From Bacillota bacterium (GTDB lineage: Bacteria > Bacillota > Dethiobacteria > DTU022 > UBA8154): a stretch of 64,000 nucleotides of DNA. Below the pieces are notes generated by a model that did not search any database, was not told where the DNA came from, and saw nothing but the letters and a program-made list of their open reading frames with translations. Below are positions 24,229 to 47,336 of this stretch, piece after piece. The translations under genes and the position numbers were made by a program. Numbering within the stretch: position 1 is the first letter of the stretch; each line of letters opens with the position of its first letter. The DNA lies in contig JAAZMP010000037.1 in assembly GCA_012798755.1 (NCBI GenBank), positions 581-64,580 on the forward strand, in the 5' to 3' direction.

Positions 24229-25113
24229 TTGTTATCTAAAATTGTTATACGGAGGGGATGGCAGGGAATTATCATTATCATATTTTTTCTGATTGTAGCC
24301 TTTGGAGCGGAATACCTTGCACCCTATGGAAGGTATGAACAGGTTGGCCCTTCTTTTCAACCGCCTTCACCATCAAACATTTTCGGTATTGATGACTGCG
24401 GATATGATATTTTAAGTCAAGTGATCTGGGCAAGCCGTAATAGTTTGATGGTAGGTATAGTAACAGGTGTGCTGGCCGTGTCGGGGGGCCTTATTTGGGG
24501 GGTAACTGCCGGTTATCATGGTGGTTTTATCGATCTTTTGTTGATGCGCCTTTGTGATATCATGCTTGGTTTGCCCCAGATGCCGTTTATGATTTTAATA
24601 GCAGTATACATCGGTGCGAGCCTAGGAAACATCATCATAATGCTTGCTGTATTCATGATGCCCCGCCTTGCCAGGGTGATCAGAGGCCAGGTTATCAGCT
24701 TGAAGGAAAATGCTTACATCAAGGCATCCCAAATGTTCGGTGCAAAAACAAAATATTTGATTCGGAGACACTATATCCCCGAACTTTTCCCGCTTATTTG
24801 CTCAGGGATAATTAACTTGGTAGGCAGGGCCATTTTAGCAGAATCAGGACTGGCTTTTCTTGGATTGGGGGATCCAACGGCAAAGAGTTGGGGTATGATC
24901 ATTCATTATGCTTTAAAATATCCCAAGACTTACCTTACAGCTGCTTGGACTTGGTGGGTTTTACCGCCCGTTATCTGTATTGTCTTGCTCAATTTGGCTT
25001 TTGTGATGCTTGGATATGGTTTGGAGGAATCTTTTGATCCACGTCTCCGTGGGAAAAACGGTGTAAAAAAGGATCCACAAAACAAAAAAACAAGGAGGAA
25101 AAGAAAAACAATC
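24229..25113 (+). CDS. ABC transporter permease (OppC/DppC/NikC-like). Its frame has no stop and runs directly into the downstream binding-protein gene
   Basis: The BPD-transporter core and C-terminal ...EESFDPRLRGK are typical of OppC. The frame stays open through an A-rich 22-codon spacer into ATG 25114. Confidence 0.7.
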
Positions 25114-32106: not shown

Positions 32107-32639
32107 TATGGAGGAAGAATTATTTGGTTAAAACAGGAAGTATTTTTACAGAGATCGCCCGTCAATCCCTGGAAAACCATCTTCGGGGGAAACCGAAGCT
32201 TTTTTCCCGGAGCCTTCCCGCCAAACTCAAGCAGCCGGGAGCAGCTTTTGTTACCCTAAAAAAACAAGGCGATCTAAGAGGCTGTATCGGCACGATTTTT
32301 CCTACTAAAAAGACTTTGGCGGAAGAAATTGCCGCCAATGCTATCAGCGCCGGGTTGCACGATTCCCGTTTCCCTCCGGTTTCCAAAAACGAACTGGGGG
32401 ATTTGACTTACAGCGTTGATATCCTGACCAAACCGGAAAAAACAGAAGATTTATCTCAGTTGGATCCCCGGCGCTATGGAGTGATCGTCCGGCACGGCAG
32501 CAAAAGCGGTTTGCTGCTGCCGGATTTGGAAGGAATTGATACAGTGGAAGAACAATTGGAAATAGCTAAGCAAAAAGCAGGGATACGGCACGATGAAGAC
32601 GTGGAAATCTACCGTTTTAAGGTGGAACGTTATTATTAA
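32103..32639 (+). CDS. AmmeMemoRadiSam system protein A (AMMECR1 domain)
   Basis: AMMECR1 hallmarks (GAAFVTLKK.GDLRGCIGT, RYGVIV..G..SGLLLP). ATG 32103 overlaps the upstream stop (ATGA). Confidence 0.75.
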   Translation: MIWRKNYLVKTGSIFTEIARQSLENHLRGKPKLFSRSLPAKLKQPGAAFVTLKKQGDLRGCIGTIFPTKKTLAEEIAANAISAGLHDSRFPPVSKNELGDLTYSVDILTKPEKTEDLSQLDPRRYGVIVRHGSKSGLLLPDLEGIDTVEEQLEIAKQKAGIRHDEDVEIYRFKVERYY

Positions 32640-32656
32640 AACTGACGTGGGGGAAT

Positions 32657-33682
32657 ATGGAAAATATGAAAGAGGCACGCTACTATACCCGAAATAATTC
32701 CAAAATATCCTGTGAGCTTTGTCCCCAGGGATGTCTGCTTTCAGAGGGCCAAACGGGTATTTGTGGTGTCCGCAAGGTTGAAAAAGGGAAGCTTGTAACT
32801 TTAAATTATGCTTTGTGTGCTGCCATGAATATAGATCCCATCGAAAAAAAACCTCTTTACCATTTTTACCCCGGCTGGGAAATTCTTTCCGTTGGAACGA
32901 TTGGGTGCAACCTGCATTGTTCTTTTTGCCAGAACTGGTCCTTGGCCCGAGGCGATCGTTCCCCAACGATAGAAAAAACTACCCCGGGGGAGTTTTTGGA
33001 TATTCTCCAAGAGCGCCCCTTACGGCAACAATTGGGTATCGCCTATACCTATAATGAACCTACGATTTGGTACGAATTTGTCCTGGAAACCGCGCAGCTT
33101 ATGGCTGAAAATGGTTATAAAAACGTTCTTGTATCTAATGGGCTTATCAACAAACAACCCTTGCAGGAACTTTTGCCCTATATCCAGGCCATGAATATCG
33201 ATGTCAAGTCCTTTAGCGAAGAATTTTACCGGCAACATTGCAAGGGGCGGGGTCTTAAAGAGGTTAAACGTACCGTAGAGCAGGCACATTCGCGCTGCCA
33301 TGTGGAGCTTACCTATCTTATCGTTACTACATTAAACGACAGCCGTGAAGAAATAGAGGATTTTGTCAATTGGGTAGCCTCCGTGGATAAAGAGATCCCC
33401 GTCCATTTTAGTCGCTATTTTCCCAGCTATCGCCTGAAGATACCCCCTACACCGCCGGAAACGATACGGCAAGCCTGGGAAACCGCTAAAGAAAAGCTTT
33501 CTTATGTTTATGTCGGTAATGTCATGGATCCCAAAAGGAGTGCCACGTACTGCCCCTTTTGCAACCGGCTTTTGATCGATCGTAGTGGATATCGCGTTAA
33601 AAACGAGGGGTTAAAGGGTAAAAAATGCAAAACATGCGGTAATACTATAAGGTTGACGGGGCATATTTATGGAGAAGGATGA
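32657..33682 (+). CDS. AmmeMemoRadiSam system radical SAM enzyme
   Basis: CNLHCSFC (CxxxCxxC) radical-SAM cluster motif; extra N-terminal and C-terminal Cys pairs; third gene of the triad. Confidence 0.8.
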   Translation: MENMKEARYYTRNNSKISCELCPQGCLLSEGQTGICGVRKVEKGKLVTLNYALCAAMNIDPIEKKPLYHFYPGWEILSVGTIGCNLHCSFCQNWSLARGDRSPTIEKTTPGEFLDILQERPLRQQLGIAYTYNEPTIWYEFVLETAQLMAENGYKNVLVSNGLINKQPLQELLPYIQAMNIDVKSFSEEFYRQHCKGRGLKEVKRTVEQAHSRCHVELTYLIVTTLNDSREEIEDFVNWVASVDKEIPVHFSRYFPSYRLKIPPTPPETIRQAWETAKEKLSYVYVGNVMDPKRSATYCPFCNRLLIDRSGYRVKNEGLKGKKCKTCGNTIRLTGHIYGEG

Positions 33683-35182: not shown

Positions 35183-36040
35183 GTGTGGGAACAGATTACT
35201 GCCGGTATTACACAATTAAACGTAAGCTGGCGGGATATCATTGATATCGCCATTGTAACTTATATCTTATATCGCCTTATTCTCCTAATCAGAGGTACCA
35301 GGGCAGAACAGCTTGTGAAGGGCCTGATTATTTTACTACTCGCCTGGATTGCCAGCGGTCTGCTGGGTTTACGGACAATAAACTGGCTTTTACAGGGATT
35401 GATGACCGTGGGACTTATCGCGGTGCCCATTATATTCCAGCCTGAACTTAGAAAAGCGCTGGAACACTTAGGCCGTGGCAAACTATTTCAAAGCGGTCTT
35501 TATGAGGAGAGCGGTTTTTATGAGTTGTTGGAGGAACTTCTTAAAGCGATACCCGTTCTTGTTAAGAAAAGAATAGGTGCTTTGATCGTTTTAGAAAGAG
35601 AAACAGGCCTAAAGGACATCATTGAAACGGGTATCAAAATTAACGGGGTTGTTACAGCCGAACTTTTAATCAACATTTTTATGCCCCGTAGCCCGTTGCA
35701 CGATGGGGCCGCTATTATCAGGGGAAATGTTATCGCGGCAGCCGGCTGCTTCCTGCCTTTAACAGAAAATCCCAATCTTAGTAAGGAATTGGGGACAAGA
35801 CATAGGGCAGGAATGGGTATAACGGAAATATCTGATGCGCTGGTTATTATCATCTCTGAAGAGACGGGAGTTATCTCACTTGCACATAATGGTAAACTTA
35901 CGCGCTATCTTGACGAGAAAACCTTACGCAGCACGCTTTTAAATTTTTTTTCCACACCGGATATCGGGGAAAAGAAAAAAATGACAATCTCAAACTTTTT
36001 TTCTTGGAGGCTTGGCGAACAAGATGAAGATAAACTTTAA
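35183..36040 (+). CDS. cdaA: Diadenylate cyclase CdaA
   Basis: Three N-terminal TM helices plus a DAC domain (DGAAII, RHRAAIGISE-type GTRHRAGMGITE). Confidence 0.9.
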   Translation: MWEQITAGITQLNVSWRDIIDIAIVTYILYRLILLIRGTRAEQLVKGLIILLLAWIASGLLGLRTINWLLQGLMTVGLIAVPIIFQPELRKALEHLGRGKLFQSGLYEESGFYELLEELLKAIPVLVKKRIGALIVLERETGLKDIIETGIKINGVVTAELLINIFMPRSPLHDGAAIIRGNVIAAAGCFLPLTENPNLSKELGTRHRAGMGITEISDALVIIISEETGVISLAHNGKLTRYLDEKTLRSTLLNFFSTPDIGEKKKMTISNFFSWRLGEQDEDKL

Positions 36041-36950
36041 ACTGTTCTCGGAAAATCCCAACCTACTAAGGATCTTGGCTTTTTTGCTGGCTTTGATACT
36101 TTGGTTTTTTGTTGCCGGGGACAGGCAGGATCTTGGATCAGAGGTACGCCAAACTATCGGAAATATACCCTTGTCTTATCGAAACCTGGGTCAGGATTTG
36201 GAGGTCGCCGGGGAGGAAGAAAGCGTAACCCTATCCCTGCAAGGTACACCACGGGCTTTCGATGGGTTAACACCCGTGGACCTGGAGGCATATATTGATC
36301 TAAGCGGGAAACGGGAAGGACGTTATGATCTGCGTATCAACGCTACTGCCCCGAAAGGTCTCAGTATTGTGGGTATTGAACCTGCCAAATCCAAGGTTGT
36401 CCTGGAAGATTTAATTACCAGGCAAATTTCAGTAGAAGATAATTTGCAGGGAGAACCGGGTGGCGGTTTAGTTGTTCAGGAGGTAGAGTTTGCTCCCAAG
36501 GAGGTTTTTATTCGGGGCCCGCGGCGTAAAATTGATCTTGTCAGCAAGGTCATTTTTTACCTTGACATCAGTGGTGCAGAAAGCACCATAACCGGCAGTG
36601 CCCTGCTTTATGCCCTGGATGACAAAGAAAATCTTATCGAAAATATAACTGTCACTCCTGATACCGCTGAAGTGCGGGTAACCTTTACCCTACCCCGGAA
36701 AGATTTGCCGGTTGAAGTTATTTTTGACAGTGATGGCAGGGTTGTAGAAATGGTGAAAGTAGAGCCTTCGACAGTGACAGTGACCGGCCCCAGCCAATTG
36801 TTGGAAAACCTTACCGGTATTTTGACAGAAGAAATCAATTTAAAAAATAAGGGGGATATTTTTACTGTAGAAGTCCCATTAATTGTTCCCGAAAATGTTA
36901 CTTGTAAAAACAAACATGTAACGGTGCAGGTTTTCTTGGCAGGAGAATAG
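36024..36950 (+). CDS. cdaR: CdaA regulator CdaR (YbbR-domain protein)
   Basis: N-terminal TM plus repeated YbbR-like domains; overlaps the cdaA stop. Confidence 0.8.
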   Translation: MKINFKLFSENPNLLRILAFLLALILWFFVAGDRQDLGSEVRQTIGNIPLSYRNLGQDLEVAGEEESVTLSLQGTPRAFDGLTPVDLEAYIDLSGKREGRYDLRINATAPKGLSIVGIEPAKSKVVLEDLITRQISVEDNLQGEPGGGLVVQEVEFAPKEVFIRGPRRKIDLVSKVIFYLDISGAESTITGSALLYALDDKENLIENITVTPDTAEVRVTFTLPRKDLPVEVIFDSDGRVVEMVKVEPSTVTVTGPSQLLENLTGILTEEINLKNKGDIFTVEVPLIVPENVTCKNKHVTVQVFLAGE

Positions 36951-37082: not shown

Positions 37083-38432
37083 ATGAAAAAATTATTTGGA
37101 ACCGATGGGATTCGCGGTATTGCTAACACTGAATTGACACCGGAACTATCCTTTAAAATGGGCCGTATTGTAGCCTCCTTGCTGGGTAACGCGGATGCCT
37201 CCTTAAATCCTTTTTTTCTGGTAGGCAGAGATCCCCGGCTTTCCGGGACCATGCTGGAGGGGGCACTTGTGTCCGGGATTAACTCTGCAGGAATGGATGT
37301 GCGTTTGTTAGGAATAGTGCCTACACCGGCTGTAGCTTATTTGACAGCCAAACTTGAAGCGGCAGGCGGTGCGATGATCTCTGCTTCCCACAATCCCGTA
37401 GAGGATAACGGCATTAAATTTTTTAACGGGCAAGGATTCAAGCTTGATCCGGAACTGGAAACAGAAATGGAAAAACTGTATTTCGCCAAAGAAGATAAAC
37501 TGGCACGTCCCGTTGGCAAAAACATTGGGCGTACTTATCATTGCGGAGAGGCATTGCAATATTACTTGTCTTTTCTAAAAAACCTGTTTCCTGAACCGGC
37601 AGGGATTAAAATTGTTATAGATTGTGCCCATGGCGCACTCTGCGAAATAGCGCCAAAATTTTACGAAGAACTCGGGGCGGAAGTTGTTTCTATAAACAGT
37701 AGCCCTGATGGAGAATTAATTAATGTTAATTGCGGTTCAACCAACCCAGCTATGCTGAAAAAAACTGTACTGGAAGAAAAAGCGGATTTGGGATTGGCCT
37801 TTGATGGCGATGGCGATCGTCTTATCGCCGTTGATGAACAGGGACAAACAGTAGACGGGGATGTCATTATGGCTGTTTGCGCTGCGTATCTGAAAGAAAA
37901 GGGCCGGCTCAGAAGCAGCAAGCTCGTTGCCACTGTTATGAGTAATGGCGGCCTGGAAATAGTCGGTGACAGGCATGGTTTTTCGGTTCTACGTACAAAA
38001 GTAGGAGATCGTTACGTCTTGGAAAAGATGCAGCGTGGTCACTATTCCCTAGGTGGCGAACAGTCGGGGCATATTATTTTTTCTGATGTGCTGGCTACAG
38101 GCGACGGTCTTTTGACCTCCCTGCAACTTTTAAAGGTGATGCTGCTAAAAGGCGAACCTCTTTCCGAATTGGCGGCAATCATGCCCCGTTTTCCCCAATT
38201 ATTGATTAACTGCCGTGTCAAAAACAAGGATGCCTGGGAAAATAATCAACGCATTGTTGAAGCTGTAAAGGAAGCGGAAAAAAGATTAACCGGGGGCAGG
38301 GTATTAGTGAGGGCCTCCGGCACTGAACCTCTTATCAGGATTATGCTGGAAGGAAAGGATGCTTCCTTACTTAAGACTGTTTCCAGGGAGCTGGCGGAGA
38401 TCGTTAATCTGGAAATGGGCATCCCGGAATAA
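37083..38432 (+). CDS. glmM: Phosphoglucosamine mutase
   Basis: MKKLFGTDGIRG; active-site SASHNP. Confidence 0.9.
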   Translation: MKKLFGTDGIRGIANTELTPELSFKMGRIVASLLGNADASLNPFFLVGRDPRLSGTMLEGALVSGINSAGMDVRLLGIVPTPAVAYLTAKLEAAGGAMISASHNPVEDNGIKFFNGQGFKLDPELETEMEKLYFAKEDKLARPVGKNIGRTYHCGEALQYYLSFLKNLFPEPAGIKIVIDCAHGALCEIAPKFYEELGAEVVSINSSPDGELINVNCGSTNPAMLKKTVLEEKADLGLAFDGDGDRLIAVDEQGQTVDGDVIMAVCAAYLKEKGRLRSSKLVATVMSNGGLEIVGDRHGFSVLRTKVGDRYVLEKMQRGHYSLGGEQSGHIIFSDVLATGDGLLTSLQLLKVMLLKGEPLSELAAIMPRFPQLLINCRVKNKDAWENNQRIVEAVKEAEKRLTGGRVLVRASGTEPLIRIMLEGKDASLLKTVSRELAEIVNLEMGIPE

Positions 38433-38503
38433 ATGCCGAAATTAAATGGTTTAAGGTCTAGCGGCAAATAAGTTATGAAAATTGTATAAACGGAGGATGG
38501 AAT

Positions 38504-40336
38504 ATGTCTGGAATTGTTGGTTACATAGGGAAAATGCAGGCTTATCCATTCCTTATTGAAGGTTTGTATAAACTTGAATATAGGGGTTACGACTCTGCCG
38601 GGGTGGCTGTGCAGTGTCCGGATGGGCTGAAAATAATAAAAACAAAAGGAGAAATATCCAACCTGGAAGAAAAAGTTGGGAAAAACTTGCTGGCCGGAAA
38701 CGCTGGGTTTGGGCATCTCCGGTGGGCAACACATGGGAAGCCCTCCGAAATCAACGCCCATCCTCACAGAGCCTGCTCTGATGATTTTGCTCTTGTTCAC
38801 AATGGTATCATCGAAAACTACCTTCAACTTCGCCAATGGTTGGAAAGCGAGGGGCATCGGTTTATTTCCGAAACCGATACCGAGGTGCTGGCGCATCTAA
38901 TTGAACATTACTACCGCGGAGATCTATTGGAAAGCGTACAGGAGGCCATAAAAAAAGTTACCGGGTCTTTTGCCCTTGTTGCTGGTGTCCGGGGAGAAAA
39001 AGACAGGTTGATCTGCGCCCGCAAGGATGCGCCCCTGATGATCGGTTTGGGAGAAAACGAAAACTATATCAGTTCCGATTTTGCGGCTCTTTTGCCCCAT
39101 ACCCGCAAAATTCACATTCTGGAGGACATGGAAACAGCCCTTATAACAGCTTCTGCTGTAAAAATATTTAATTCGGATTGTACCGTGTTGCAGAAAAAGG
39201 CCCAGCAAATTAATTGGGATGTCACCTCCGCAGAAAAAAGCGGTTACGAGCATTTCATGCTTAAAGAGATCATGGAACAACCACAAGCTTTGCGTGATAC
39301 AATGCGTGGCCGGCTATTAGATGGCGGCAAAAAAATTGATCTTAGCAGTGAATTAAATTTTACCACACAAGAAATAAAGGATTTCGCCAAGGTATTCATC
39401 GTTGCTTGCGGTACAGCTTACCATGCCGGGTTGGTGGGCAAATATCTTATGGAAAAAATCCTGCGTTTGCCGGTTGAGGTCGATGTTGCTTCGGAGTTTC
39501 GTTACCGGGATCCTTTGCTGTGTGAAAACACACTTGTCATTGTTATCAGCCAATCCGGGGAAACAGCCGATACCCTGGCAGCACTAAGGTTGGCCCGGGA
39601 AAGAGGCCATAAGATACTGGCGATCACCAATGTTGTAGGCAGTTCTGTGGCACGGGAGGCCGGCAGGGTGTTATTTACTTATGCCGGACCGGAGATTGCT
39701 GTTGCCTCCACCAAGGCCTATCTTACTCAACTGCTTGCACTTTATATGCTCACCTATTACTTCGCCCAAGAGAGAAATTTATTGGAACAAAAGCAGTTGG
39801 AAAAGGCCGGAGAAAGCCTTTTTAATCTCCCGGCACAGGTAGAAACAATTTTGGACCGGGAAAAGGAGATCCCCAAGATGGCAGACTATCTAAGCCGTTG
39901 GGAAAATGCTTACTTCATTGGCCGCAACATGGATTTTGCTGTAGCCCTGGAAGGAGCATTGAAGCTAAAGGAAATCTCCTACATCCATGCCGAGGCCTAT
40001 GCTGCCGGCGAACTGAAACATGGCACCTTAGCTTTGGTTGTCGAAGGGATACCTGTTATGGCTTTGGCTACCCAAAACGCTGTTTTAGATAAATCCCTGA
40101 GTAATATCAAGGAAATCAAAGCCCGGGGAGGTTACGTGCACTGTTTTGCCCAGGAAGGTAGTGAGGCCCTACAAAACGAAGTAGACAGCATTTTTTACCT
40201 GCCTCCAGCGGAAGATGTTTTCTTGCCTGTTTTAGCTGTGATCCCTTTGCAGCTTCTCGCCTATTATACTGCTGTAGCCCGTGGTTGTCCCATAGATAAT
40301 CCCCGCAATCTGACCAAAAGTATTACCGTGGAATAA
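38504..40336 (+). CDS. glmS: Glutamine--fructose-6-phosphate aminotransferase homolog. The N-terminus is MSGIVGY instead of the canonical MCGIVGY
   Basis: Full-length GlmS with both SIS domains. Codon 2 is TCT (Ser) where the Ntn glutaminase nucleophile Cys is otherwise invariant. Confidence 0.9.
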   Translation: MSGIVGYIGKMQAYPFLIEGLYKLEYRGYDSAGVAVQCPDGLKIIKTKGEISNLEEKVGKNLLAGNAGFGHLRWATHGKPSEINAHPHRACSDDFALVHNGIIENYLQLRQWLESEGHRFISETDTEVLAHLIEHYYRGDLLESVQEAIKKVTGSFALVAGVRGEKDRLICARKDAPLMIGLGENENYISSDFAALLPHTRKIHILEDMETALITASAVKIFNSDCTVLQKKAQQINWDVTSAEKSGYEHFMLKEIMEQPQALRDTMRGRLLDGGKKIDLSSELNFTTQEIKDFAKVFIVACGTAYHAGLVGKYLMEKILRLPVEVDVASEFRYRDPLLCENTLVIVISQSGETADTLAALRLARERGHKILAITNVVGSSVAREAGRVLFTYAGPEIAVASTKAYLTQLLALYMLTYYFAQERNLLEQKQLEKAGESLFNLPAQVETILDREKEIPKMADYLSRWENAYFIGRNMDFAVALEGALKLKEISYIHAEAYAAGELKHGTLALVVEGIPVMALATQNAVLDKSLSNIKEIKARGGYVHCFAQEGSEALQNEVDSIFYLPPAEDVFLPVLAVIPLQLLAYYTAVARGCPIDNPRNLTKSITVE

Positions 40337-40414
40337 AATTTTTGAAGATGCGCTTTTAGACCATGAAGGCGCTTTTATTGAGGCCCAATTTCAATTAATT
40401 CCAAGGGTGATGGT

Positions 40415-41293
40415 ATGAATTCAAGGCAAAAAGTATTGGCAACTCTGCAGGGCTCAGTGCTCGATCCTCCGGCCAAAGGGGAAATCTGGGTTTTTCCTAG
40501 GGTGCTGGAAAGCCAGGGGTTTCCAAATAACTATATGGGATTGTGCAAATTTGCTCTAAAAATTGGTTTTGATTTTTGCTTTTTCAGCTGCGGAGGGCCT
40601 CAACCCCTGGCATGCGAAAAAAATATTTTAGAAAATGCAGTTAAACTGGCTAAAACAGAAAATCTGGCCTGCGGCGCTGTAGTAGATGGACCCTGGCAAA
40701 GGAAGGTACAAAAGGAAGGTCTTTGGCCTTCTTTAAAGGAAATATCATTGGATCCTTCAACTTTTGAAAAAAAGATTAATGCCGAAGCAATCTTTGTGGA
40801 GAAGGAACTATCAGCTTGGATAGAGGCAGGTGCCGATCTTATACTGTTAACCGACGACCTTGCCTATACCAAGGGCCCCTATTTTTCTCCCCAACTTTTT
40901 CAGCAAGTACTGCTACCGTTGTATAAGGGTTTTTTGCAATCATCCGCACAGGGTAAAGTTCCCCTTGGCTTTCATGCGGATGGAGATGTCAGCTTAATCA
41001 TGCCTTTTCTTGTTAGCAGTGGTTTTAAGTTTTTTTCTTTGGAGCCAGAGGCAATCGATCTATTGGATGTATGGCAAAAATATGGCAAAAAGACAACGAT
41101 TGTTTCCGGTATTTATGCTGCCTGGCTTACCGACAGCCGCCTGGTTGTCAAAGAACCCCGCCGCCAAGAAAAGTTGGCCGATCATATTAATAAAGGCAGC
41201 CTTATTCTGGCCTCCGCCTGCGGTTTGTATGAACCTTCCTCTGTGGAACTGTTAAGCAGGCTCTATACTCTTTCTTGTAATGTTTCCTCATAA
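40415..41293 (+). CDS. URO-D/MtaA-family corrinoid methyltransferase-like protein (short, 292 aa)
   Basis: The C-terminal half follows the URO-D TIM-barrel pattern (DDLAYTKGPYFSPQLFQQVLLPLYKGF...GFHADGDVS...). Confidence 0.6.
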   Translation: MNSRQKVLATLQGSVLDPPAKGEIWVFPRVLESQGFPNNYMGLCKFALKIGFDFCFFSCGGPQPLACEKNILENAVKLAKTENLACGAVVDGPWQRKVQKEGLWPSLKEISLDPSTFEKKINAEAIFVEKELSAWIEAGADLILLTDDLAYTKGPYFSPQLFQQVLLPLYKGFLQSSAQGKVPLGFHADGDVSLIMPFLVSSGFKFFSLEPEAIDLLDVWQKYGKKTTIVSGIYAAWLTDSRLVVKEPRRQEKLADHINKGSLILASACGLYEPSSVELLSRLYTLSCNVSS

Positions 41294-41456
41294 ACACTGC
41301 TTTGCTGTTTTCAGCTGATTTGTCAACACCAAGAAATGCCGGTTCACACTGGAGTTCCTGGTGTTTTTATTTTGAGGTTGACTTTTATAAAAGGAGGATA
41401 TAGAATATAATTAGTTTAGATGTATATACATCTGTTTGTAAGGTGGCAAATTAACA

Positions 41457-42248
41457 ATGGCAGATTTAGAAAAAGATTTAAAAAAAATAAGTAAGTCCTC
41501 TGTTATCCCCGTTTATTATCAACTGGCCAGGATTTTAGAAAAAAGAATTCGTTTAGGTAAACTAAAACCCGGCGAATCTTTACCATCGGAAAATAAAATT
41601 GCATCGATTTGCGGTATCAGCAGAATGACCGTCAGAAGGGCTATTGCGGAGCTGGTTGATTTAAGGCTGCTTTCTCCGCAAAAAGGAAAGGGTACTTTTG
41701 TTACTGAGCATGAATTTGCTCATACAGTATTTGAATTCTACGATTTTTTTAAAGAGATGCGCAGAAAAGGAAAAGAACCCAGCTCCAAACTGGTTAATGT
41801 TAGAATAATTAAAGCTGATAAGACGATAGCAAAAAAACTTGATATCCCTATTGATACAAAAACATTATCTATTAAATTAATTCTTGCTGCAGATGGCTAC
41901 CCCATGGTTTATGAAGAAAAATACATCGTTTACACCAAACAAAATCCCATAATTGAATCTGAATTAAGGGATCCCTCCCTACCCAGTCTTGTTTCTTCAC
42001 ATTTACATAAGTTGCCGGTAACCAGTCGCAGAATTCTACAGGTTACCATCATCAATGAAGAAGAAGCTATTTTATTGAACACTAAACCTCATTCACCTGC
42101 ATTTCTGGTGGAGCAAATTTTATATGACAAGGATAACACACCAATTGGCTGGGGCAAATCAATTTATCGCGGGGATAGTTATAAACTTGTAAGCTATGAC
42201 GGACTAAATCCCGGCCGGGAAAAAGGGGGCATTATAGATTATGAGTGA
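41457..42248 (+). CDS. GntR/HutC-family transcriptional regulator (wHTH + UTRA)
   Basis: SENKIASICGISRMTVRRAIAELV is the GntR HTH; the C-terminal UTRA-like domain follows. Confidence 0.85.
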   Translation: MADLEKDLKKISKSSVIPVYYQLARILEKRIRLGKLKPGESLPSENKIASICGISRMTVRRAIAELVDLRLLSPQKGKGTFVTEHEFAHTVFEFYDFFKEMRRKGKEPSSKLVNVRIIKADKTIAKKLDIPIDTKTLSIKLILAADGYPMVYEEKYIVYTKQNPIIESELRDPSLPSLVSSHLHKLPVTSRRILQVTIINEEEAILLNTKPHSPAFLVEQILYDKDNTPIGWGKSIYRGDSYKLVSYDGLNPGREKGGIIDYE

Positions 42249-42864
42249 TTTGATCGAAATGATTGTCAACCTTGATGAACAAAAAACAATCAATTGTATA
42301 AAAAAAAGATTAAATAACGGCGAAAGCGCCATGCAAATTTTTGAGGAATGTATGAAAGGTATTGAAAAGGTTGGCCAAAAATATAGTGAGGGATTCTATT
42401 TTTTATCCGATCTGATCATGGCCGGGGAAATTTTTAGGGCCATAACGGAGATACTGGAACCGCTTTTACCGGAGGGTGACAATGCTGTCAGCAATGATCT
42501 TAAGGTAGTGATCGGTACGGTAAAAGGGGATATCCATGATCTTGGCAAAAATCTGATTGCCTATTACTTAAAATCCAAGGGATTTAAAGTATATGACCTG
42601 GGAGTGGATGTCCCTCCGGAAAAGTTTATAAATACTCTTAAGGAGACAGGCGCCTCTATTTTAGGGATATGCACTTTGCTGACCAGTTGTTTTAACAATA
42701 TAAAAAAAATTGTAGGGCTTTTAGACGAAGCGGGATTGAGAAATGATATTACCGTGATAATCGGAGGTTACCCGGTGGATGAAACAGTCAAAAATTATGT
42801 TGGTGCAGATTATTTCAGCAATAATGCAAGGAGCGCTTTTGATTTGTTTAAACATTTAAGCTAA
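42241..42864 (+). CDS. Corrinoid (B12-binding) protein of a methyltransferase system
   Basis: N-terminal cap domain plus DxHxxG (GDIHDLGKN) and Rossmann B12-binding domain. Confidence 0.85.
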   Translation: MSDLIEMIVNLDEQKTINCIKKRLNNGESAMQIFEECMKGIEKVGQKYSEGFYFLSDLIMAGEIFRAITEILEPLLPEGDNAVSNDLKVVIGTVKGDIHDLGKNLIAYYLKSKGFKVYDLGVDVPPEKFINTLKETGASILGICTLLTSCFNNIKKIVGLLDEAGLRNDITVIIGGYPVDETVKNYVGADYFSNNARSAFDLFKHLS

Positions 42865-42925
42865 CCGGTTATTTTTTTTAAAACAACATGTCTATACATC
42901 TGCACCTATAAACAGGAGGTGATCT

Positions 42926-43006
42926 ATGGAAAGTAAAAAATTTGATTTAAGCTGCTTTACTAATCAATTATCAATCAGAAAGGATGAAAAGCATGTACGG
43001 TTTTGA
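42926..43006 (+). CDS. Candidate 26-aa upstream ORF (MESKKFDLSCFTNQLSIRKDEKHVRF) overlapping the transporter start
   Basis: Perfect SD (AGGAGGTGATC) 5 nt before its ATG. Its stop overlaps the first codons of the BenE-like gene. Confidence 0.25.
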   Translation: MESKKFDLSCFTNQLSIRKDEKHVRF

Positions 43007-44213
43007 AAAGGGGCCCGGTTTTAAAAACGGCTTAAACAGTTTGGCCAAGGATCTTAACTCCAACGCCATAACTGCGGGCATTGTTGCTGCTATTTTCGGC
43101 CTGAGTGCAGGGGTGGTCCATATTGGAGCGGGGCAGGCTGCCGGAATGACATCAAGCCAGATCATTGCCTGGGTTGTCAGCCTGTTTATGATAAACGGGT
43201 TAGGGGGAATAATAATACCTCTTTACTACAAGCAGCCCATTTCTGTTGCCAATAGTTTGCCTGGGGCTATATTGTTTGCTTCCCTTATACCTGTTTTTTC
43301 GTTGCAGGAAGTCCTGGGGGCGGCCTTGGTGTCAGGGGTTATAGTTTTACTGCTGGGGATTACAGGAACAATCAAAAAGGTAATGCAGTTTTTGCCGGTG
43401 CCTATCGTTTTAGGGATGACAGGAGGGGTCCTTCTAAAATTCGGTTTAGATATGGTCAGTGCCATCTCTAATGCCGCTCTGCCTGTTTTATTAATGATTG
43501 CAGCTTATTTGCTGGTTAGTAATTATAGTAAAAAGTTCCCCGGAGTACTAGCTGCGATTATTGTGGGCATAGTGGTGATGTTATTTCAGGGTGTGGATAT
43601 GTCGGGCATTGGTGTTGTCGTGGACTACCCCCGTTTTGTGGCACCGGCTTTTTCCTGGGCTTCCATCATTAGTTTTAGTATACCCTTTGCCATAATGGTT
43701 GTGGGTGCAGAAAATGCGCAAGCCATTGGCGTCATGATGGGGCAGGGCTATAAAGTTCCTATAAACGGAATGACAATCGCAAGCGGTATCGGCGGCATTG
43801 TTTCCCCTTTGTTTGGTTTGCATAATACGAATATTGCCGGGCCAATGACCGCAATCTGTGCCTCCGAAGATGCCGGGGAAAAGGACAAAAGATGGGTTAG
43901 CGCCCTTATCGTTGGTATTATATGGGTCATTGCAGCGCCTTTCTATGGTACCGTGGTTGAATTTTTGCAAGTTGTTCCCGGATTCTTTATTTCTGTAATT
44001 GTTGGACTGGCGCTTATTAAAGTGCTGGTAAGTTGTATTGGCAGCTCTATTGGGGCGGCCACTCACACAATTGGTGCTTTATTTGCCTTCTTGATTGGGG
44101 CCTCAGGAGTGGCATTTTTTAACCTGGGATCTCCTTTCTGGGCATTGGTGGGGGGGTTGGTGGTTTCCTTAATCCTGGAAAGAGAACAGTTTGAATTTGC
44201 AGCTGATTCTTAG
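42993..44213 (+). CDS. BenE-family (benzoate-type) membrane transporter
   Basis: KQPISVANSLPGAILFASL parallels the BenE MPISIAWSTPGAALL block; 11-12 TM segments. Confidence 0.6.
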   Translation: MYGFEKGPGFKNGLNSLAKDLNSNAITAGIVAAIFGLSAGVVHIGAGQAAGMTSSQIIAWVVSLFMINGLGGIIIPLYYKQPISVANSLPGAILFASLIPVFSLQEVLGAALVSGVIVLLLGITGTIKKVMQFLPVPIVLGMTGGVLLKFGLDMVSAISNAALPVLLMIAAYLLVSNYSKKFPGVLAAIIVGIVVMLFQGVDMSGIGVVVDYPRFVAPAFSWASIISFSIPFAIMVVGAENAQAIGVMMGQGYKVPINGMTIASGIGGIVSPLFGLHNTNIAGPMTAICASEDAGEKDKRWVSALIVGIIWVIAAPFYGTVVEFLQVVPGFFISVIVGLALIKVLVSCIGSSIGAATHTIGALFAFLIGASGVAFFNLGSPFWALVGGLVVSLILEREQFEFAADS

Positions 44214-44283
44214 AAGCAAAGGATGGATATTGCCGGGTATTTTTTAGAGCATACTGTTATTTCAATACTTGAAAGGAGCATGC

Positions 44284-45666
44284 ATGATGAATCAGGAGGA
44301 AAAGCAAAAACTTTACGAAGAAAGGTTGGCCCGCTATCAGGCAGCCATATCTCTTGAACCGGTCGATCGGATGCCTGTCGGGGCGACAGCTGCAAATTAT
44401 TTTGCAGAAGTATATGCCGGATACAGCAATCAAGAGATCGTATATGACGATGAAAAATGGATCGATGCCCAGGTCCAATTCTACAATGATTTTCCTGAAG
44501 TGGATGTCTTGCGAGCAGGGAAAATATGGGCGCCTTTGTATGATGCCCTGGGATGTAATTTATACAGGATTCCCGGCCGGGATCTGCCGCCGGGCGGTCA
44601 ATTTCAATATGTTGAAATGGAACGTATGAAAACAGACGAATATGACTTATTGATTAACAGTCCGGTCGAATTTTTTATGGAACGTTACCTTCCAAGGACT
44701 TTTAGTGAATTTAAAGAACGTGGGTCAACGCGCAGTTATATAGCATTTTTAAAGGGCGGCCTGGGTTTTATGATGAGAAGTGCCATCAATAAAAAAATCA
44801 GCGAAACCCTGCAAAAAAAATGCGGTATACCTCAGCCTATCTGTGGCGCCTTGTTGACCCCTTTTGATTTTTTGGCCGACGGATTAAGGGGTCTTAAAGG
44901 TATCATGCTTGATCTTTACCGTAAGCCGGATAAAGTGCTTGAGGCTTGCGATTCATTGGTTGATCAAATGGTCAGAGGCGCACTTGCCGGCGCGGATCCA
45001 CAGTGCCGTATCCCTATCTTTCTTCCTCTGCATCGGGGCAACACCCCATTTCTTTCACCAAAACAATTTGAGATATTTTACTGGCCCAGCTTGAAAAAAA
45101 CATTGGAAAAACTGATTGCAGCCGGATATCAGGTTCGTGCTTACCTGGAAGGCGATTGGAGCCACAATTGGCACCATTTCCGTGAACTTCCCAAAGGTTC
45201 TGTGGTGTGTGACATAGACACACAAGGAGATATTTATAAGGCTTGGGAGGATCTTGGCGGGTGGCAGTGCATTGTTGGCGGAATGCCCGATACCACTTTA
45301 ATACTGGGTTCCCCGGAAGATGTTAAGGCAAGGGTCAAGGAATTATGTGAAAACATTGGTAAAGACGGGGGTTTTATGATTACGGGCGGCTGTTCTTTTC
45401 CCTATGATACCAAGCCGGAAAACTTTAGGGCTTACGTAGATGCTGTCCTCGAATACGGTCGTTACAACGACTCCGTAAAAATGGAGGTAAAAACCAGCAC
45501 CCCGTCAACGGAACAGATATTTGATTCTAAACCAGCGGTTATTACCCCCTGGGAAACAAAAGCTGAGGAACTGGGCGATATAATGGGGGATGAGGAGCTA
45601 ATCAAACAATCTTGGGAAATGCTTGAGCACCTGGCTTACAATTGGCTCTGGGCCTGGACCTGGTAA
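44284..45666 (+). CDS. URO-D-like substrate:corrinoid methyltransferase (long form, ~460 aa), candidate MT-I
   Basis: The C-terminal 200 aa match the URO-D/MtaA pattern (FLSPKQFEIFYWPSLKKTLEKL..., GNTPF, ILGSPEDVKARVKEL, GGFMITGGCSFPYDTKPENFRAYVDAVLEYG). Confidence 0.6.
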   Translation: MMNQEEKQKLYEERLARYQAAISLEPVDRMPVGATAANYFAEVYAGYSNQEIVYDDEKWIDAQVQFYNDFPEVDVLRAGKIWAPLYDALGCNLYRIPGRDLPPGGQFQYVEMERMKTDEYDLLINSPVEFFMERYLPRTFSEFKERGSTRSYIAFLKGGLGFMMRSAINKKISETLQKKCGIPQPICGALLTPFDFLADGLRGLKGIMLDLYRKPDKVLEACDSLVDQMVRGALAGADPQCRIPIFLPLHRGNTPFLSPKQFEIFYWPSLKKTLEKLIAAGYQVRAYLEGDWSHNWHHFRELPKGSVVCDIDTQGDIYKAWEDLGGWQCIVGGMPDTTLILGSPEDVKARVKELCENIGKDGGFMITGGCSFPYDTKPENFRAYVDAVLEYGRYNDSVKMEVKTSTPSTEQIFDSKPAVITPWETKAEELGDIMGDEELIKQSWEMLEHLAYNWLWAWTW

Positions 45667-45703
45667 AAGATCTAACAGTATTTAAGAAGGGAGAAAATTA
45701 ACT

Positions 45704-46345
45704 ATGGGCAAATTATCTGAACTGGCGCAAGCTCTTATGGAACTAAATGAATTTAAGTTTTTAGAACTGGTGGATGAGAAGTTAAAGAAAAAAGAAGATC
45801 CTTTAGAAATAATCAAAGAGTGCAATGCCGGAATGGTTGAAGTAGGCAATCTTTTTTCGGAAAACAAGTATTTTATCAGTGAACTAATGTTTTCAGCAGA
45901 GCTGTTCAAAGAAGCGATGAAAAAGTTGGAGCCGTTTCTTGGTAACAGCAAAACAAAGGAGCAATCCGGTGAAATTGTGATCATAGGAACGGTAGAAGGG
46001 GACATCCATGATATTGGTAAAAACATTGCTGCTAACCTCATAGAAGGCAGCGGTTATAGGGTTATCGATTTGGGTGTTGATGTACCTGCAGAAAAGTTTG
46101 TGGAGGAATTGAAGAAAACCGGTGCAAAGGTTTTAGGCTTGAGTGCCATGTTAAACTTTGTATTTCCGGAAATGAAAAATGTCGTAGATTCGATCGCTGA
46201 AGCAGGCTTGAGGGAACAGGTAAAAATTATCATTGGTGGAGCACCGTGTAACGAGCAGGTCAGAAAATTTTGTGGAGCGGACTATTATGCAAAAGATGCT
46301 TCCGCCGGTGTTACAATTTGTCAGGAAATATACAGCAGTGAATAA
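45704..46345 (+). CDS. Corrinoid (B12-binding) protein, second copy
   Basis: GDIHDIGKN DxHxxG motif; paralogous to 42241-42864. Confidence 0.85.
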   Translation: MGKLSELAQALMELNEFKFLELVDEKLKKKEDPLEIIKECNAGMVEVGNLFSENKYFISELMFSAELFKEAMKKLEPFLGNSKTKEQSGEIVIIGTVEGDIHDIGKNIAANLIEGSGYRVIDLGVDVPAEKFVEELKKTGAKVLGLSAMLNFVFPEMKNVVDSIAEAGLREQVKIIIGGAPCNEQVRKFCGADYYAKDASAGVTICQEIYSSE

Positions 46346-46457
46346 GGACTGGTCTAGCGAATAGTGAAGTCGTGGAATGCTTTATATTATTAACTAAAAG
46401 CCAATCATTGTTAACGTGATTGGCTCCTTTCTTACCATAAAACCGGGGGTATGAACT

Positions 46458-47336
46458 ATGGCAGAAACAAAGGTATCCGGGAAAACAAAGGAAATCATTA
46501 TCAGCAGCGAAAAACCTACAGTTTTGATTGGCGAACGTATTAATCCTACGGGAAGGAAAAAACTTTCGGCAGAATTACAAAAGGGTAATCTAGACATAAT
46601 TGAAAAAGAAGCGCTGGAACAAGTTAGCGCCGGTGCCGACATCATAGATGTAAACGTAGGTGCCACAGGGGTGGATGAGGTTGTCCTGTTGCCGGAAGCA
46701 ATAAGCCGCCTTATGGAAAAAATTGACGTGCCTCTTTGTTTGGACAGCAGTAATCCCAAAGCGTTGGCAAAAGCCCTGGAAATTTACCAAGGTAAGGCAC
46801 TAGTGAATTCTGTTAAAGGTGAAGAGAGCTCACTAAAGACTATTTTGCCTTTAATAAAGGAGTATAATGCCGCTGTTATTGCTTTGCCTGTTGATGAAGC
46901 AGGCATACCTTTTACAGTTGAAAAGCGCTTGGAAATTTCCGCTAAAATATTAAATGCAGCAGAGTTGTTAGGTATTTCCAAAGAAAACATTATTATAGAT
47001 TGCCTGGCACTGACACTGGGGACAAACGATCAAGCCGGGAAAATTGTTTTAGCAACCATAGAAAATATAAAAGAAAAATTGGATGTAAACATAACAGTTG
47101 GGGCAAGCAACATTTCATTTGGATTGCCTGATAGGAATCTGATTAACAATGTGTTTTTGGCCGCTGCAATTTCTAAAGGTCTTACCTGCCCGATAGTCGA
47201 TGTTGCCGCGGTTATTCAGTCAGTGCTTGCCATTGATTTGGTGCTCGGCAAAGATAGGTTTGCCTTGCGTTATGTTAAAAATTATCGCCGGAAAAAAGCT
47301 GAAGGCGGAGGGGGCTGCATTAAGAGTTTAACATAA
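46458..47336 (+). CDS. Pterin-binding methyltransferase (methylcorrinoid:tetrahydrofolate methyltransferase, MT-II; MtrH/AcsE-like)
   Basis: DHPS-like pterin-binding barrel blocks (IGERINPTG, IIDVN, LCLDSSNPKALA, VNSV). Confidence 0.8.
   Translation: MAETKVSGKTKEIIISSEKPTVLIGERINPTGRKKLSAELQKGNLDIIEKEALEQVSAGADIIDVNVGATGVDEVVLLPEAISRLMEKIDVPLCLDSSNPKALAKALEIYQGKALVNSVKGEESSLKTILPLIKEYNAAVIALPVDEAGIPFTVEKRLEISAKILNAAELLGISKENIIIDCLALTLGTNDQAGKIVLATIENIKEKLDVNITVGASNISFGLPDRNLINNVFLAAAISKGLTCPIVDVAAVIQSVLAIDLVLGKDRFALRYVKNYRRKKAEGGGGCIKSLT

What the first reader, a model, noticed from the sequence alone, without database searches (positions are those of the whole stretch)
38504..38512. glmS encodes Ser in place of the invariant N-terminal catalytic Cys (MSGIVGY instead of MCGIVGY)
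Class II glutamine amidotransferases use Cys1, exposed after Met removal, as the glutaminase nucleophile. Here codon 2 is TCT, one transversion from TGT, in an otherwise canonical full-length GlmS. This is the last gene of the conserved cdaA-cdaR-glmM-glmS operon. Three explanations are possible: a sequencing error; an ammonia-dependent or regulatory GlmS variant; or a natural Ser-nucleophile variant. A Cys1 substitution should abolish glutamine-dependent GlcN6P synthesis, so the cell would need a second glmS. There is no room for a glmS ribozyme, since the 5' gap is only 71 nt.
Basis: partly seen in the sequence, partly recalled or inferred. Interest (0 to 1): 0.65.

Follow-up and report, generated by a model that had tools for sequence, protein, structure and literature searches.

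The report
Natural serine-for-cysteine GlmS variant, recurrent
The cell-wall precursor enzyme GlmS in this biogas-reactor bacterium really does carry serine instead of its textbook "invariant" catalytic cysteine, and the same swap has arisen and been kept repeatedly in other bacteria, so it is a working natural variant rather than an error.

Summary
Codon 2 of glmS (38504-40336, +) is TCT (Ser), preceded by a strong Shine-Dalgarno site, with no alternative upstream start. It is not a base-call error. The identical protein lies on 6 contigs, and syntenic orthologues in about 12 independent assemblies of related Dethiobacteria also carry TCT-Ser. A neighbouring lineage gained Ser independently, using codon AGC. 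Both lineages also acquired T72L/I, K599N and A604T, at sites that are almost never changed in about 280 Cys-type GlmS. A604T corresponds to E. coli Ala602, an ammonia-channel/C-tail residue. All other glutaminase and isomerase catalytic residues are intact. dN/dS in the glutaminase domain (0.04-0.09) equals that in the isomerase domain and in Cys-type orthologues. Ser1 GlmS also occurs elsewhere: in all 120 closest Terriglobia (Acidobacteriota) clusters, and in several lineages where the glutamine site has decayed. No second glmS, nagB or glmS ribozyme lies in the window. My preferred mechanism is that Ser1 acts as the N-terminal nucleophile of a still glutamine-binding housekeeping enzyme (about 0.45). 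The main rival is a glutaminase-dead, ammonia-using synthase suited to ammonia-rich digesters (about 0.3). Enzyme assays are needed to decide.

The parts
38504..40336 (+). glmS coding sequence (610 aa plus stop). It has an N-terminal class II (Ntn) glutaminase domain of about residues 2-240 and two SIS isomerase subdomains of about residues 245-610.
   Evidence: TIGR01135 794 bits; NF001484 802 bits; E. coli GlmS structures, E=1e-157. The AF2 model has mean pLDDT 86.
38507..38509 (+). Codon 2, TCT = Ser, at the position of the catalytic Cys1 (E. coli mature numbering).
   Evidence: It aligns to Cys1 of 4amv and to the Ala of the 3ooj chain, which begins AGIVGA. TCT is conserved in all main-clade orthologues.
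38492..38496 (+). GGAGG Shine-Dalgarno sequence, 7 nt upstream of the ATG. It fixes the start codon.
   Evidence: Sequence. GGAGG is conserved upstream of all orthologues. An in-frame stop lies upstream.
38717..38719 (+). Codon 72, CTC = Leu, replacing the near-invariant Thr72 that immediately precedes Arg73-Trp74 of the Q-loop.
   Evidence: Thr is found in 105 of 108 Cys-type relatives, Leu in the whole clade, and Ile in the independent Ser lineage P0040.
40298..40300 (+). Codon 599, AAT = Asn. It is Lys in 108 of 108 related Cys-type GlmS and corresponds to E. coli Gln597, at the start of the C-terminal lid.
40313..40315 (+). Codon 604, ACC = Thr, replacing Ala. It corresponds to E. coli Ala602, next to the Schiff-base residue Lys603. 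This C-tail residue contacts the Trp74 gate of the ammonia channel.
   Evidence: The structural role is taken from PMC7948480 and PMC9272926.
40350..40380 (+). Terminator-like GC hairpin plus T-run, 14 nt after the glmS stop. It makes glmS the last gene of the operon.
37083..38432 (+). glmM (phosphoglucosamine mutase), the next enzyme of the pathway, 71 nt upstream of glmS. No terminator-like site lies between them.
   Evidence: (TIGR01455, 541 bits).
35183..36950 (+). cdaA (diadenylate cyclase, 35183-36040) and a ybbR/cdaR-like gene (36012-36950), the upstream genes of the operon.
   Evidence: TIGR00159, 256 bits. Pfam YbbR is recorded on the identical gene in L091 and L092.

Best explanation
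This is the organism's housekeeping glucosamine-6-phosphate synthase, and the N-terminal nucleophile Cys1 has been replaced by Ser as a fixed, selectively maintained state.

Shown:
- The substitution is real and heritable across species.
- The gene is the syntenic orthologue of Cys-type glmS.
- Every other glutamine-binding, oxyanion-hole, channel-gate and isomerase residue is retained.
- Both domains are under equally strong purifying selection.
- The swap arose at least twice in neighbouring lineages, each time with the same companion substitutions in the Q-loop and C-terminal lid.

Inferred, my preferred mechanism:
- Met1 is removed, because Ser is a good methionine-aminopeptidase P1' residue.
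- The exposed Ser1 hydroxyl, activated by its own alpha-amino group as in Ser/Thr Ntn hydrolases, attacks the glutamine amide and forms a gamma-glutamyl oxy-ester.
- NH3 then passes through the Trp74/C-tail channel, retuned by L72 and T604, to fructose-6-P bound at Lys605/Glu490/His506.
- The enzyme is probably slower than a Cys enzyme, which a slow-growing anaerobe can tolerate.
- It would be insensitive to thiol oxidation and to Cys-alkylating glutamine analogues.
For: Reality and fixation:
- The identical protein is on 6 contigs.
- TCT-Ser is present in orthologues from JGI 3300053716, GCA_050948785.1, GCA_046128275.1, ERZ925076, ERZ27280802 and several Logan runs. All read members of the relevant 90% clusters are also Ser.

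Orthology:
- The same AmmeMemoRadiSam-agcS-cdaA-ybbR-glmM-glmS synteny is seen in Ser species and in the Cys species P0007.

Constraint:
- NG86 dN/dS in the glutaminase domain is 0.04-0.09 for Ser-Ser pairs, 0.055 for the Cys-Cys pair, and 0.045-0.11 for the isomerase domain. The unsaturated pair P0010-P0011 gives 0.052 in both domains.
- In 18 Ser sequences of the two lineages, R73, W74, T76, H77, H86, N98, G99 and D123 (E. coli numbering) and SQSGET, E488, H504 and K603 are unchanged. In the same domain, 50% of columns vary among the 6 Ser lineages.
- The GATase/SIS divergence ratio of the window protein is normal, z=+0.8 against 134 Cys representatives.

Independent origin:
- P0040/P0164 use AGC and group with Cys proteins at 99.5-100% bootstrap.
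- They share T72I, D208N, K599N and A604T with the main clade, with no sign of recombination of those segments.

Ser1 with a pristine glutamine site elsewhere:
- All 120 best Terriglobia clusters have it, with Ser codons drifting synonymously (TCA/TCG/TCC) and glutaminase motifs conserved in 120 of 120.
- Metagenome group A, L108 and P0369 show the same pattern.

Chemical precedent (established knowledge):
- Ntn hydrolases use Ser (penicillin G acylase) or Thr (proteasome).
- Gamma-glutamyltranspeptidase, a Thr enzyme, acts on gamma-glutamyl amides.
Against: - No enzymology exists for any Ser1 GlmS.
- In E. coli GlmS, changing or deleting Cys1 (C2A, deltaC2) abolishes complementation (PMC11822699).
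- From my own knowledge, C1S mutants of other class II amidotransferases lose glutamine-dependent activity but keep NH3-dependent activity.
- The companion change A604T is otherwise seen only in Ser1 lineages. Four of those (L106, L109, P0329, P0340) have lost Asn98 and/or Thr76/His77/His86 and show accelerated glutaminase-domain evolution. P0340 nevertheless still sits in a cdaA-ybbR-glmM-glmS operon. This suggests that Ser1+Thr602 may mark loss of glutaminase function rather than retention.
- Two clade members (P0004, P0010) show mildly raised glutaminase-domain divergence, z about +2.
- The habitat is an ammonia-rich biogas reactor.
Confidence: 0.45

Rival explanations
1. The enzyme is a glutaminase-dead, ammonia-dependent GlcN6P synthase. 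C1S abolished glutamine hydrolysis. Free NH3, abundant in anaerobic digesters, reaches fructose-6-P through an entry or channel remodelled by T72L and A602T. The N-domain is kept because closure of its Q-loop and C-tail is needed to build the synthase site, possibly with glutamine acting only as an allosteric key.
For: - Both Dethiobacteria Ser lineages come from biogas-fermenter or digester metagenomes, according to the record names.
- The convergent substitutions lie at the Q-loop and the C-tail/ammonia-channel gate, not next to residue 1. The role of that region is described in PMC7948480.
- Thr602 occurs in 22 Ser sequences from at least 6 lineages, but in only 2 of 286 Cys sequences.
- Older Ser1+Thr602 lineages have a decayed glutamine site but an intact isomerase site. 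One of them (P0340) is still in the cdaA-ybbR-glmM-glmS operon.
- The Cys members P0007 and P0009 already carry L72, N599 and T604, which fits channel changes coming before loss of the nucleophile.
- There is a precedent: ammonia-specific carbamoyl-phosphate synthetase I has Ser in place of the glutaminase Cys (own knowledge; Saeed-Kothe & Powers-Lee 2003 is listed in PMC10526850).
- NagB or ammonia routes can replace GlmS in E. coli (PMC11822699).
Against: - Glutamine-specific residues (Thr76, His77, His86, Asn98) are invariant in all 18 Ser sequences, even though synonymous divergence between lineages is above 1.
- There is no detectable relaxation of the glutaminase domain in the window protein.
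- From my own knowledge (Badet and co-workers), E. coli GlmS is unusual among amidotransferases in not using exogenous ammonia.
- Cys-type orthologues live in the same sample (ERZ27280802), so the habitat alone does not force the change.
- Ser1 lineages in soil Terriglobia keep a pristine glutamine site.
Confidence: 0.3
2. The Ser1 protein is not the main source of GlcN6P. A second Cys1 glmS, a NagB/GlmD deaminase running in reverse, or amino-sugar salvage supplies it. The Ser1 protein has a regulatory, sensor or altered catalytic role, for example as a glutamine- or GlcN6P-binding partner of the c-di-AMP/GlmM module or as a deaminase.
For: - Only 64 kb of the genome, plus +/-10 kb around orthologues, could be inspected.
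- GlmS-like proteins with degraded sites exist (L106, P0329, P0362).
- Overexpressed NagB suppresses loss of glmS in E. coli (PMC11822699).
- The operon partners CdaA and GlmM are known to interact in Firmicutes (own knowledge).
Against: - The protein occupies exactly the orthologous biosynthetic slot held by Cys1 GlmS in sister species.
- Every catalytic residue of the isomerase/synthase site is intact.
- Purifying selection is as strong as in Cys orthologues.
- No second GATase/SIS protein or NagB is found in the window or in the flanks of orthologues.
Confidence: 0.12
3. The Ser codon is a sequencing, assembly or annotation artefact: a G-to-C miscall at 38508, or a wrong start codon.
For: It is a single transversion away from TGT. 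One related contig (P0008, LSQX01233041.1) is chimeric or recombinant in its 3' third.
Against: - The same codon appears in at least 12 independent assemblies from several sequencing projects and in species that differ by 16-20% in protein sequence.
- A second lineage uses AGC.
- Companion substitutions are co-inherited with the Ser.
- The Shine-Dalgarno site is strong and the upstream frame is closed.
Confidence: 0.01

Closest known systems
Canonical bacterial GlmS (glutamine--fructose-6-phosphate aminotransferase, EC 2.6.1.16; E. coli structures 1JXA, 2J6H, 4AMV)
   Same: Length and two-domain architecture are the same, with about 45% identity over the full length. All glutamine-binding, oxyanion, channel-gate (Trp74) and isomerase residues are present: Lys485, Glu488, His504, Lys603 and Ser347-Thr352. 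The gene is also in an operon with glmM.
   Different: The nucleophile is Ser, not Cys. Thr72 is Leu, Ala602 is Thr and the residue before the C-tail proline is Asn. No glmS ribozyme is present, unlike many Bacillota.
E. coli GlmS Cys1 mutants (C1A crystal form 3OOJ; C2A and deltaC2 complementation tests)
   Same: The position is the same. The 3OOJ chain starts AGIVGA and aligns residue for residue with SGIVGY of the window protein.
   Different: The laboratory mutants are inactive and fail to complement delta-glmS delta-nagB (PMC11822699). The natural Ser form is fixed and conserved in an essential-pathway operon.
Ser/Thr N-terminal-nucleophile hydrolases (penicillin G acylase with Ser; gamma-glutamyltranspeptidase and the proteasome with Thr)
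   Same: They belong to the same Ntn superfamily and share its catalytic logic: the N-terminal residue's side chain is the nucleophile and its own alpha-amine is the base. GGT acts on gamma-glutamyl amides.
   Different: They are different families, usually activated by autoproteolysis rather than Met removal, and they are not coupled to an ammonia channel. No class II amidotransferase with Ser has been described in the literature I could search.
Ammonia-specific carbamoyl-phosphate synthetase I (vertebrate CPS I)
   Same: It is an amidotransferase homologue in which the glutaminase Cys is naturally replaced by Ser. The domain is retained and the enzyme uses free NH3.
   Different: It has a class I (triad) glutaminase domain, not an Ntn domain. 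Its glutamine site is further degraded, whereas the window protein's site is intact.
Ser1 GlmS-like proteins of Terriglobia (Acidobacteriota), found here
   Same: They have Ser1 with fully conserved glutamine-site motifs, maintained across a large clade.
   Different: They are at most 50% identical to the window protein. They keep Thr72 and Ala602, and the isomerase base Glu488 is Lys in 118 of 118, so they may not be functionally equivalent.

Membership tests
GlmS (NCBIfam TIGR01135 / NF001484; EC 2.6.1.16) | End-to-end match to the equivalog profile above the curated cutoff | tested here: met
   TIGR01135 scores 794 bits against a cutoff of 418. NF001484 scores 802 bits against 381, covering residues 1-610.
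GlmS (NCBIfam TIGR01135 / NF001484; EC 2.6.1.16) | N-terminal catalytic Cys1, exposed by Met removal, as the glutaminase nucleophile | tested here: not met
   Codon 2 is TCT = Ser. It aligns to Cys1 of 4amv and 1jxa.
GlmS (NCBIfam TIGR01135 / NF001484; EC 2.6.1.16) | Glutamine-binding and oxyanion residues Arg26, Arg73, Trp74, Thr76, His77, His86, Asn98, Gly99 and Asp123 | tested here: met
   All are present in the window protein. They are invariant in 18 Ser sequences, except for a conservative R26K in 6 of them.
GlmS (NCBIfam TIGR01135 / NF001484; EC 2.6.1.16) | Isomerase/synthase residues Ser347-Gln348-Ser349-Thr352, Lys485, Glu488, His504, Lys603 and C-tail Thr606 | tested here: met
   (key-residue table).
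GlmS (NCBIfam TIGR01135 / NF001484; EC 2.6.1.16) | Biosynthetic genomic context, adjacent to glmM and orthologous to Cys-type glmS | tested here: met
GlmS (NCBIfam TIGR01135 / NF001484; EC 2.6.1.16) | Glutamine-dependent GlcN6P synthesis | not testable with these tools
   This needs an enzyme assay or genetic complementation.
Ser-type Ntn hydrolase mechanism | Ntn (alpha-beta-beta-alpha) glutaminase fold with the nucleophile as residue 1 of the mature chain | tested here: inconclusive
   Residues 3-234 are homologous to the solved glutaminase domain 1xff (E=2e-54), and the AF2 model is confident over the N-domain. Removal of Met1 before Ser is inferred from methionine-aminopeptidase specificity, not observed.
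Ser-type Ntn hydrolase mechanism | Covalent acyl-O-Ser intermediate | not testable with these tools
   This needs mass spectrometry or crystallography.
Ammonia-dependent amidotransferase homologue with a dead glutaminase domain (CPS I-like) | Catalytic Cys replaced | tested here: met
Ammonia-dependent amidotransferase homologue with a dead glutaminase domain (CPS I-like) | Relaxed or degraded glutamine-binding site | tested here: not met
   The window clade has an intact site, dN/dS of 0.04-0.09 and z=+0.8. By contrast, L106, L109, P0329 and P0340 do show degradation.
glmS-ribozyme-regulated glmS | glmS ribozyme (Rfam RF00234) in the 5' leader | tested here: not met
   No Rfam family reaches its gathering score in the window or in four orthologous loci. 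The leader is only 71 nt.
SIS-only GlcN6P deaminases (NagB-II / GlmD) | SIS domains without an N-terminal amidotransferase domain | tested here: not met
   The full GATase domain is present. NagB-II and GlmD profiles score far below their cutoffs: 146 against 430, and 80 against 580.

The most novel reading that the evidence does not exclude
Ser1 GlmS would be the first natural serine-nucleophile class II (Ntn) glutamine amidotransferase. It would be a recurrent, adaptive alternative to the "invariant" Cys1, having evolved independently in Dethiobacteria (twice), Terriglobia and other lineages. It would trade catalytic speed for robustness, for example intrinsic resistance to thiol oxidation and to Cys-alkylating glutamine-analogue antibiotics such as anticapsin/bacilysin, DON and azaserine. 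The T72L/A602T lid changes would be the tuning that makes it work in Dethiobacteria.
Probability: 0.35. Interest if true: 0.85.

Novelty: new variant of a known kind. Interest (0 to 1): 0.72.

Why it matters
The N-terminal Cys is treated as a defining, invariant feature of class II amidotransferases. It is also the covalent target of every glutamine-analogue GlmS inhibitor (PMC9272926). A naturally fixed Ser1 enzyme sitting in the housekeeping slot has several consequences.

- Either an Ntn amidotransferase can run on a serine nucleophile, or GlmS can work as an ammonia-dependent synthase. Both contradict the textbook description of this enzyme.
- The convergent companion changes (Thr72, Ala602, residue 599) are ready-made, testable predictions about how the nucleophile, the Q-loop and the ammonia channel are coupled.
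- Some bacteria would be predicted to be intrinsically insensitive to Cys1-directed antibiotics.
- Annotation rules that require or assume Cys at position 2 would mis-describe a whole class of proteins, including apparently all Terriglobia GlmS-like proteins.

Tried and rejected
1. Sequencing error. Rejected on the basis of many assemblies, several species, and a second origin with a different codon.
2. An alternative upstream start giving Cys. Rejected because of an in-frame stop and a strong Shine-Dalgarno site.
3. A glmS ribozyme or other leader RNA. None was found in the window or in four orthologous loci.
4. A second glmS, a nagB or another Ntn amidotransferase in the window. None was found by tblastn or by Pfam scans of 40 ORFs. 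Whole-genome absence could not be tested: the single genome-contig scan returned mostly distant GlmS, and the window's own genome is not in that collection.
5. The idea that P0042, also labelled Dethiobacteria, might be a second copy in the same MAG as P0004. Its accession numbers point to a different assembly.
6. Recombination as the source of the shared C-tail changes in P0040. Rejected: the P0040 tail is closer to its Cys relatives. That test instead exposed P0008 as a chimera or recombinant, so the tree was recomputed without it.
7. Reversion from Ser to Cys in P0007/P0009. This is only 66-73% supported, so it is left open against two independent gains.
8. Measuring 3D distances from Ser2 to residues 72, 208, 599 and 604. 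The AF2 model was built, but coordinates are not exposed to scripts and the C-tail has pLDDT below 50. Structural roles were therefore taken from the literature.
9. Literature on natural Ser1 or C1S GlmS. Nothing was found in the searchable library.
10. Using Terriglobia as clean proof that Ser1 is catalytic. This is weakened by their universal Glu488-to-Lys change.
Full report
**Observation**

Window 38504-40336 (+) encodes a 610-aa protein that starts MSGIVGY. Codon 2 (38507-38509) is TCT. A GGAGG Shine-Dalgarno site lies 7 nt upstream of the ATG. The upstream frame is closed by a stop, so no other start could provide a Cys.

The protein is a full-length GlmS. NCBIfam TIGR01135 scores 794 bits against a cutoff of 418. 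E. coli GlmS structures match end to end at E=1e-157. Ser2 sits exactly on Cys1 of the wild-type chain and on the N-terminal Ala of the 3OOJ chain.

Upstream lie agcS, cdaA, a ybbR/cdaR-like gene and glmM. The glmM-glmS gap is 71 nt. No Rfam family is detected anywhere in the window. A terminator-like hairpin follows glmS at 40350-40372.

**Not an error**

The exact protein is recorded on 6 contigs, and a one-residue variant (L584I) is in a further assembly. Ten of the 120 nearest 90%-identity clusters start MSG.

Orthologues that are 80-84% identical carry ATG TCT GGA. They come from JGI, NCBI (a MAG named Dethiobacteria bacterium), ENA biogas-fermenter assemblies and Logan runs. They show the same AmmeMemoRadiSam-agcS-cdaA-ybbR-glmM-glmS synteny. 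All members that were read from the relevant clusters are Ser.

A syntenic orthologue in a sister species (P0007, and also P0009) has TGT/TGC-Cys. It occurs in the same sample as a Ser species.

**A second, independent origin with the same companions**

P0040 and P0164 are 65% identical to the window protein and come from biogas fermenters. They encode Ser with AGC rather than TCT. They group with three Cys proteins at 99.5-100% bootstrap.

Relative to about 280 Cys-type sequences, both Ser lineages share four changes at otherwise near-invariant columns:
- Thr72 to Leu or Ile, immediately before Arg73-Trp74 of the Q-loop.
- Asp208 to Asn. The window protein itself keeps Asp.
- Lys599 to Asn.
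- Ala604 to Thr.

Ala604 corresponds to E. coli Ala602, next to the Schiff-base residue Lys603. In human GFAT2 the equivalent Leu/Ala pair contacts the Trp74-equivalent gate. The hydrophobic Trp74/C-tail channel is what prevents ammonia leakage (PMC7948480; PMC9272926).

Sliding-window comparison shows that the P0040 tail was not imported from the main clade. Codon usage in the tail also differs between lineages.

The same test showed that P0008 is chimeric or recombinant: its last 120 aa or so match P0040, at 97% nucleotide identity. After removing it, the main clade keeps 100% support. The placement of the Cys pair P0007/P0009 inside the clade has only 66-73% support. One gain plus one reversion, or two gains, are therefore equally possible. 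The Cys pair also carries L72, N599 and T604.

**Is the glutaminase domain decaying?**

It is not. NG86 dN/dS for Ser-Ser pairs is 0.04-0.09 in the glutaminase domain and 0.045-0.11 in the isomerase domain. The Cys-Cys pair gives 0.055 and 0.040. The best unsaturated Ser pair gives 0.052 in both domains.

All 18 Ser sequences keep the Q-loop RWATHG, NAHP(H/Q), HNGIIEN (Asn98-Gly99), SETD(T/S)E (Asp123), SQSGET, Glu488, His504 and the C-tail Lys and Thr. In contrast, 50% of glutaminase-domain columns vary among the Ser lineages.

The window protein's ratio of glutaminase-domain to isomerase-domain divergence is ordinary, at z=+0.8 against 134 Cys representatives. Two clade members and a Cys member are mildly raised, at z=+1.5 to +2.2.

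**Ser1 elsewhere**

An exact-pattern scan of JGI metagenomes for MSGIVGYIG with a TCN Ser codon found 20 loci from several unrelated GlmS lineages.

A profile of three of these lineages (groups A and B, and L108) retrieved 120 clusters named Terriglobia, Acidobacteriia or Acidobacteria, and all of them have Ser at position 2: 119 start MSGI[IV]GY and one is called with a Leu start, LSGIIGY. In these, Ser codons drift synonymously, the glutaminase motifs are conserved in 120 of 120, and dN/dS is the same in both domains. One example lies near dnaN-gyrB-gyrA. However, all of them also have Lys in place of the isomerase base Glu488, so I do not treat them as straightforward proof of function.

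Among the 150 best representatives of 50%-identity clusters, 3 have Ser and 1 has Gly.

The Ser lineages fall into two groups:
- Ser1 with Ala602 and a pristine glutamine site: Terriglobia, L108, group A and P0369.
- Ser1 with Thr602: the window clade, P0040, L106, L109, P0329 and P0340.

Within the second group, the last four have lost Asn98 and/or Thr76, His77 or His86, and they show accelerated glutaminase-domain evolution (z=+1.8 to +3.7). Their isomerase site is intact. P0340 still sits in a cdaA-ybbR-glmM-glmS operon.

**Interpretation**

The following is shown. This is a real, heritable and selectively maintained Ser1 variant of the housekeeping GlmS. It is accompanied by convergent lid and channel substitutions, and its glutamine site is still under constraint.

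The mechanism is inferred.

I favour Ser1 acting as the Ntn nucleophile of a still glutamine-using enzyme (about 0.45). Three points support this:
- Glutamine-specific residues are conserved across saturated synonymous divergence.
- Ser and Thr nucleophiles are normal in the Ntn superfamily.
- Slow-growing anaerobes could tolerate a slower enzyme.

Possible benefits are resistance to oxidation and to the Cys1-alkylating natural inhibitors anticapsin, FMDP-type compounds and DON (PMC9272926).

The main rival (about 0.3) is an ammonia-dependent synthase. The points in its favour are:
- the habitat is ammonia-rich;
- the convergent changes sit at the ammonia channel rather than at residue 1;
- Thr602 is tightly associated with Ser1 lineages that later lose the glutamine site;
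- laboratory Cys1 mutants are inactive (PMC11822699).

A redundant or regulatory role, with GlcN6P supplied from another source, gets about 0.12, because the rest of the genome could not be searched. Artefact gets about 0.01.

**Comparison with what is known**

The protein meets every tested defining feature of GlmS except the nucleophile. It works like GlmS but departs from the family definition at its single glutaminase catalytic residue.

I found no description of a natural Ser1 GlmS, or of any Ser-type class II amidotransferase, in the searchable literature. That library is incomplete, so prior knowledge elsewhere cannot be excluded.

I classify this as a new variant of a known kind. It is of high interest to enzymologists because either mechanism contradicts the textbook behaviour of this enzyme.

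Noticed in passing
L097, L100, L110, L116 (10001-11890); proteins P0177-P0296: All 120 best Terriglobia/Acidobacteria GlmS-like clusters combine Ser1 with Lys in place of the isomerase catalytic base Glu488 (motif K[LM]KK[LV]SY, 118 of 118 scored) and with Thr in place of Ser347. The glutamine site is fully conserved. Whether this is their only GlmS, and how isomerisation works without Glu488, is unexplained.
   Followed up: partly
L118 (8001-9824, P0340); L106 (681-2504); L109 (2558-4396, - strand); P0329: These GlmS homologues have Ser1 and Thr602, a degraded glutamine site (T76A/S, H77S/R/N, H86R/Y, N98S/K) and an intact isomerase site. P0340 still sits in a cdaA-ybbR-glmM-glmS operon. They are candidates for glutamine-independent GlcN6P synthases.
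   Followed up: partly
L093 (149-1984; LSQX01233041.1, protein P0008): The first 480 aa or so belong to the window's clade. The last 120 aa or so are 100% identical in protein, and 97% in DNA, to the P0040 lineage. This is either a chimeric metagenome contig or a natural recombinant, and it distorts trees if included.
   Followed up: yes
protein P0362 (a 50%-identity cluster representative): A GlmS-like protein starting MMGGIIGY, with Gly at the nucleophile position and an altered C-tail (PRNLAKIVSEE). It is another non-Cys variant.
   Followed up: no
window 40415-47336 (+): Directly downstream of glmS lies a corrinoid-dependent methyltransferase cluster: two URO-D/MtaA-like methyltransferases, a GntR/UTRA regulator, two B12-binding proteins, a BenE-family transporter and a pterin-binding (methyl-THF) methyltransferase. 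This looks like a methyl-group (O-demethylase or methylamine-type) utilisation system. It is conserved in L091 and L092.
   Followed up: no
window 31279-33682 (+): A complete AmmeMemoRadiSam trio (LigB/Memo-like, AMMECR1 and a radical SAM enzyme, TIGR04337) lies immediately upstream of agcS-cdaA. It is syntenic in all related Dethiobacteria loci.
   Followed up: no
window 8975-12574 (+) and 24229-26754 (+): One long ORF of 1199 aa has a Pfam match (GH130 mannoside phosphorylase) only in its C-terminal 290 residues or so. An 841-aa ORF combines an ABC permease domain with an SBP_bac_5 solute-binding domain, which is either a fusion or a mis-joined ORF.
   Followed up: no
L001/L002 9800-10000 compared with window 38433-38503: The glmM-glmS spacer is 201 nt in the P0004 species but 71 nt in the window and 19 nt in the Cys species P0007. 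No Rfam family matches the longer spacer.
   Followed up: partly
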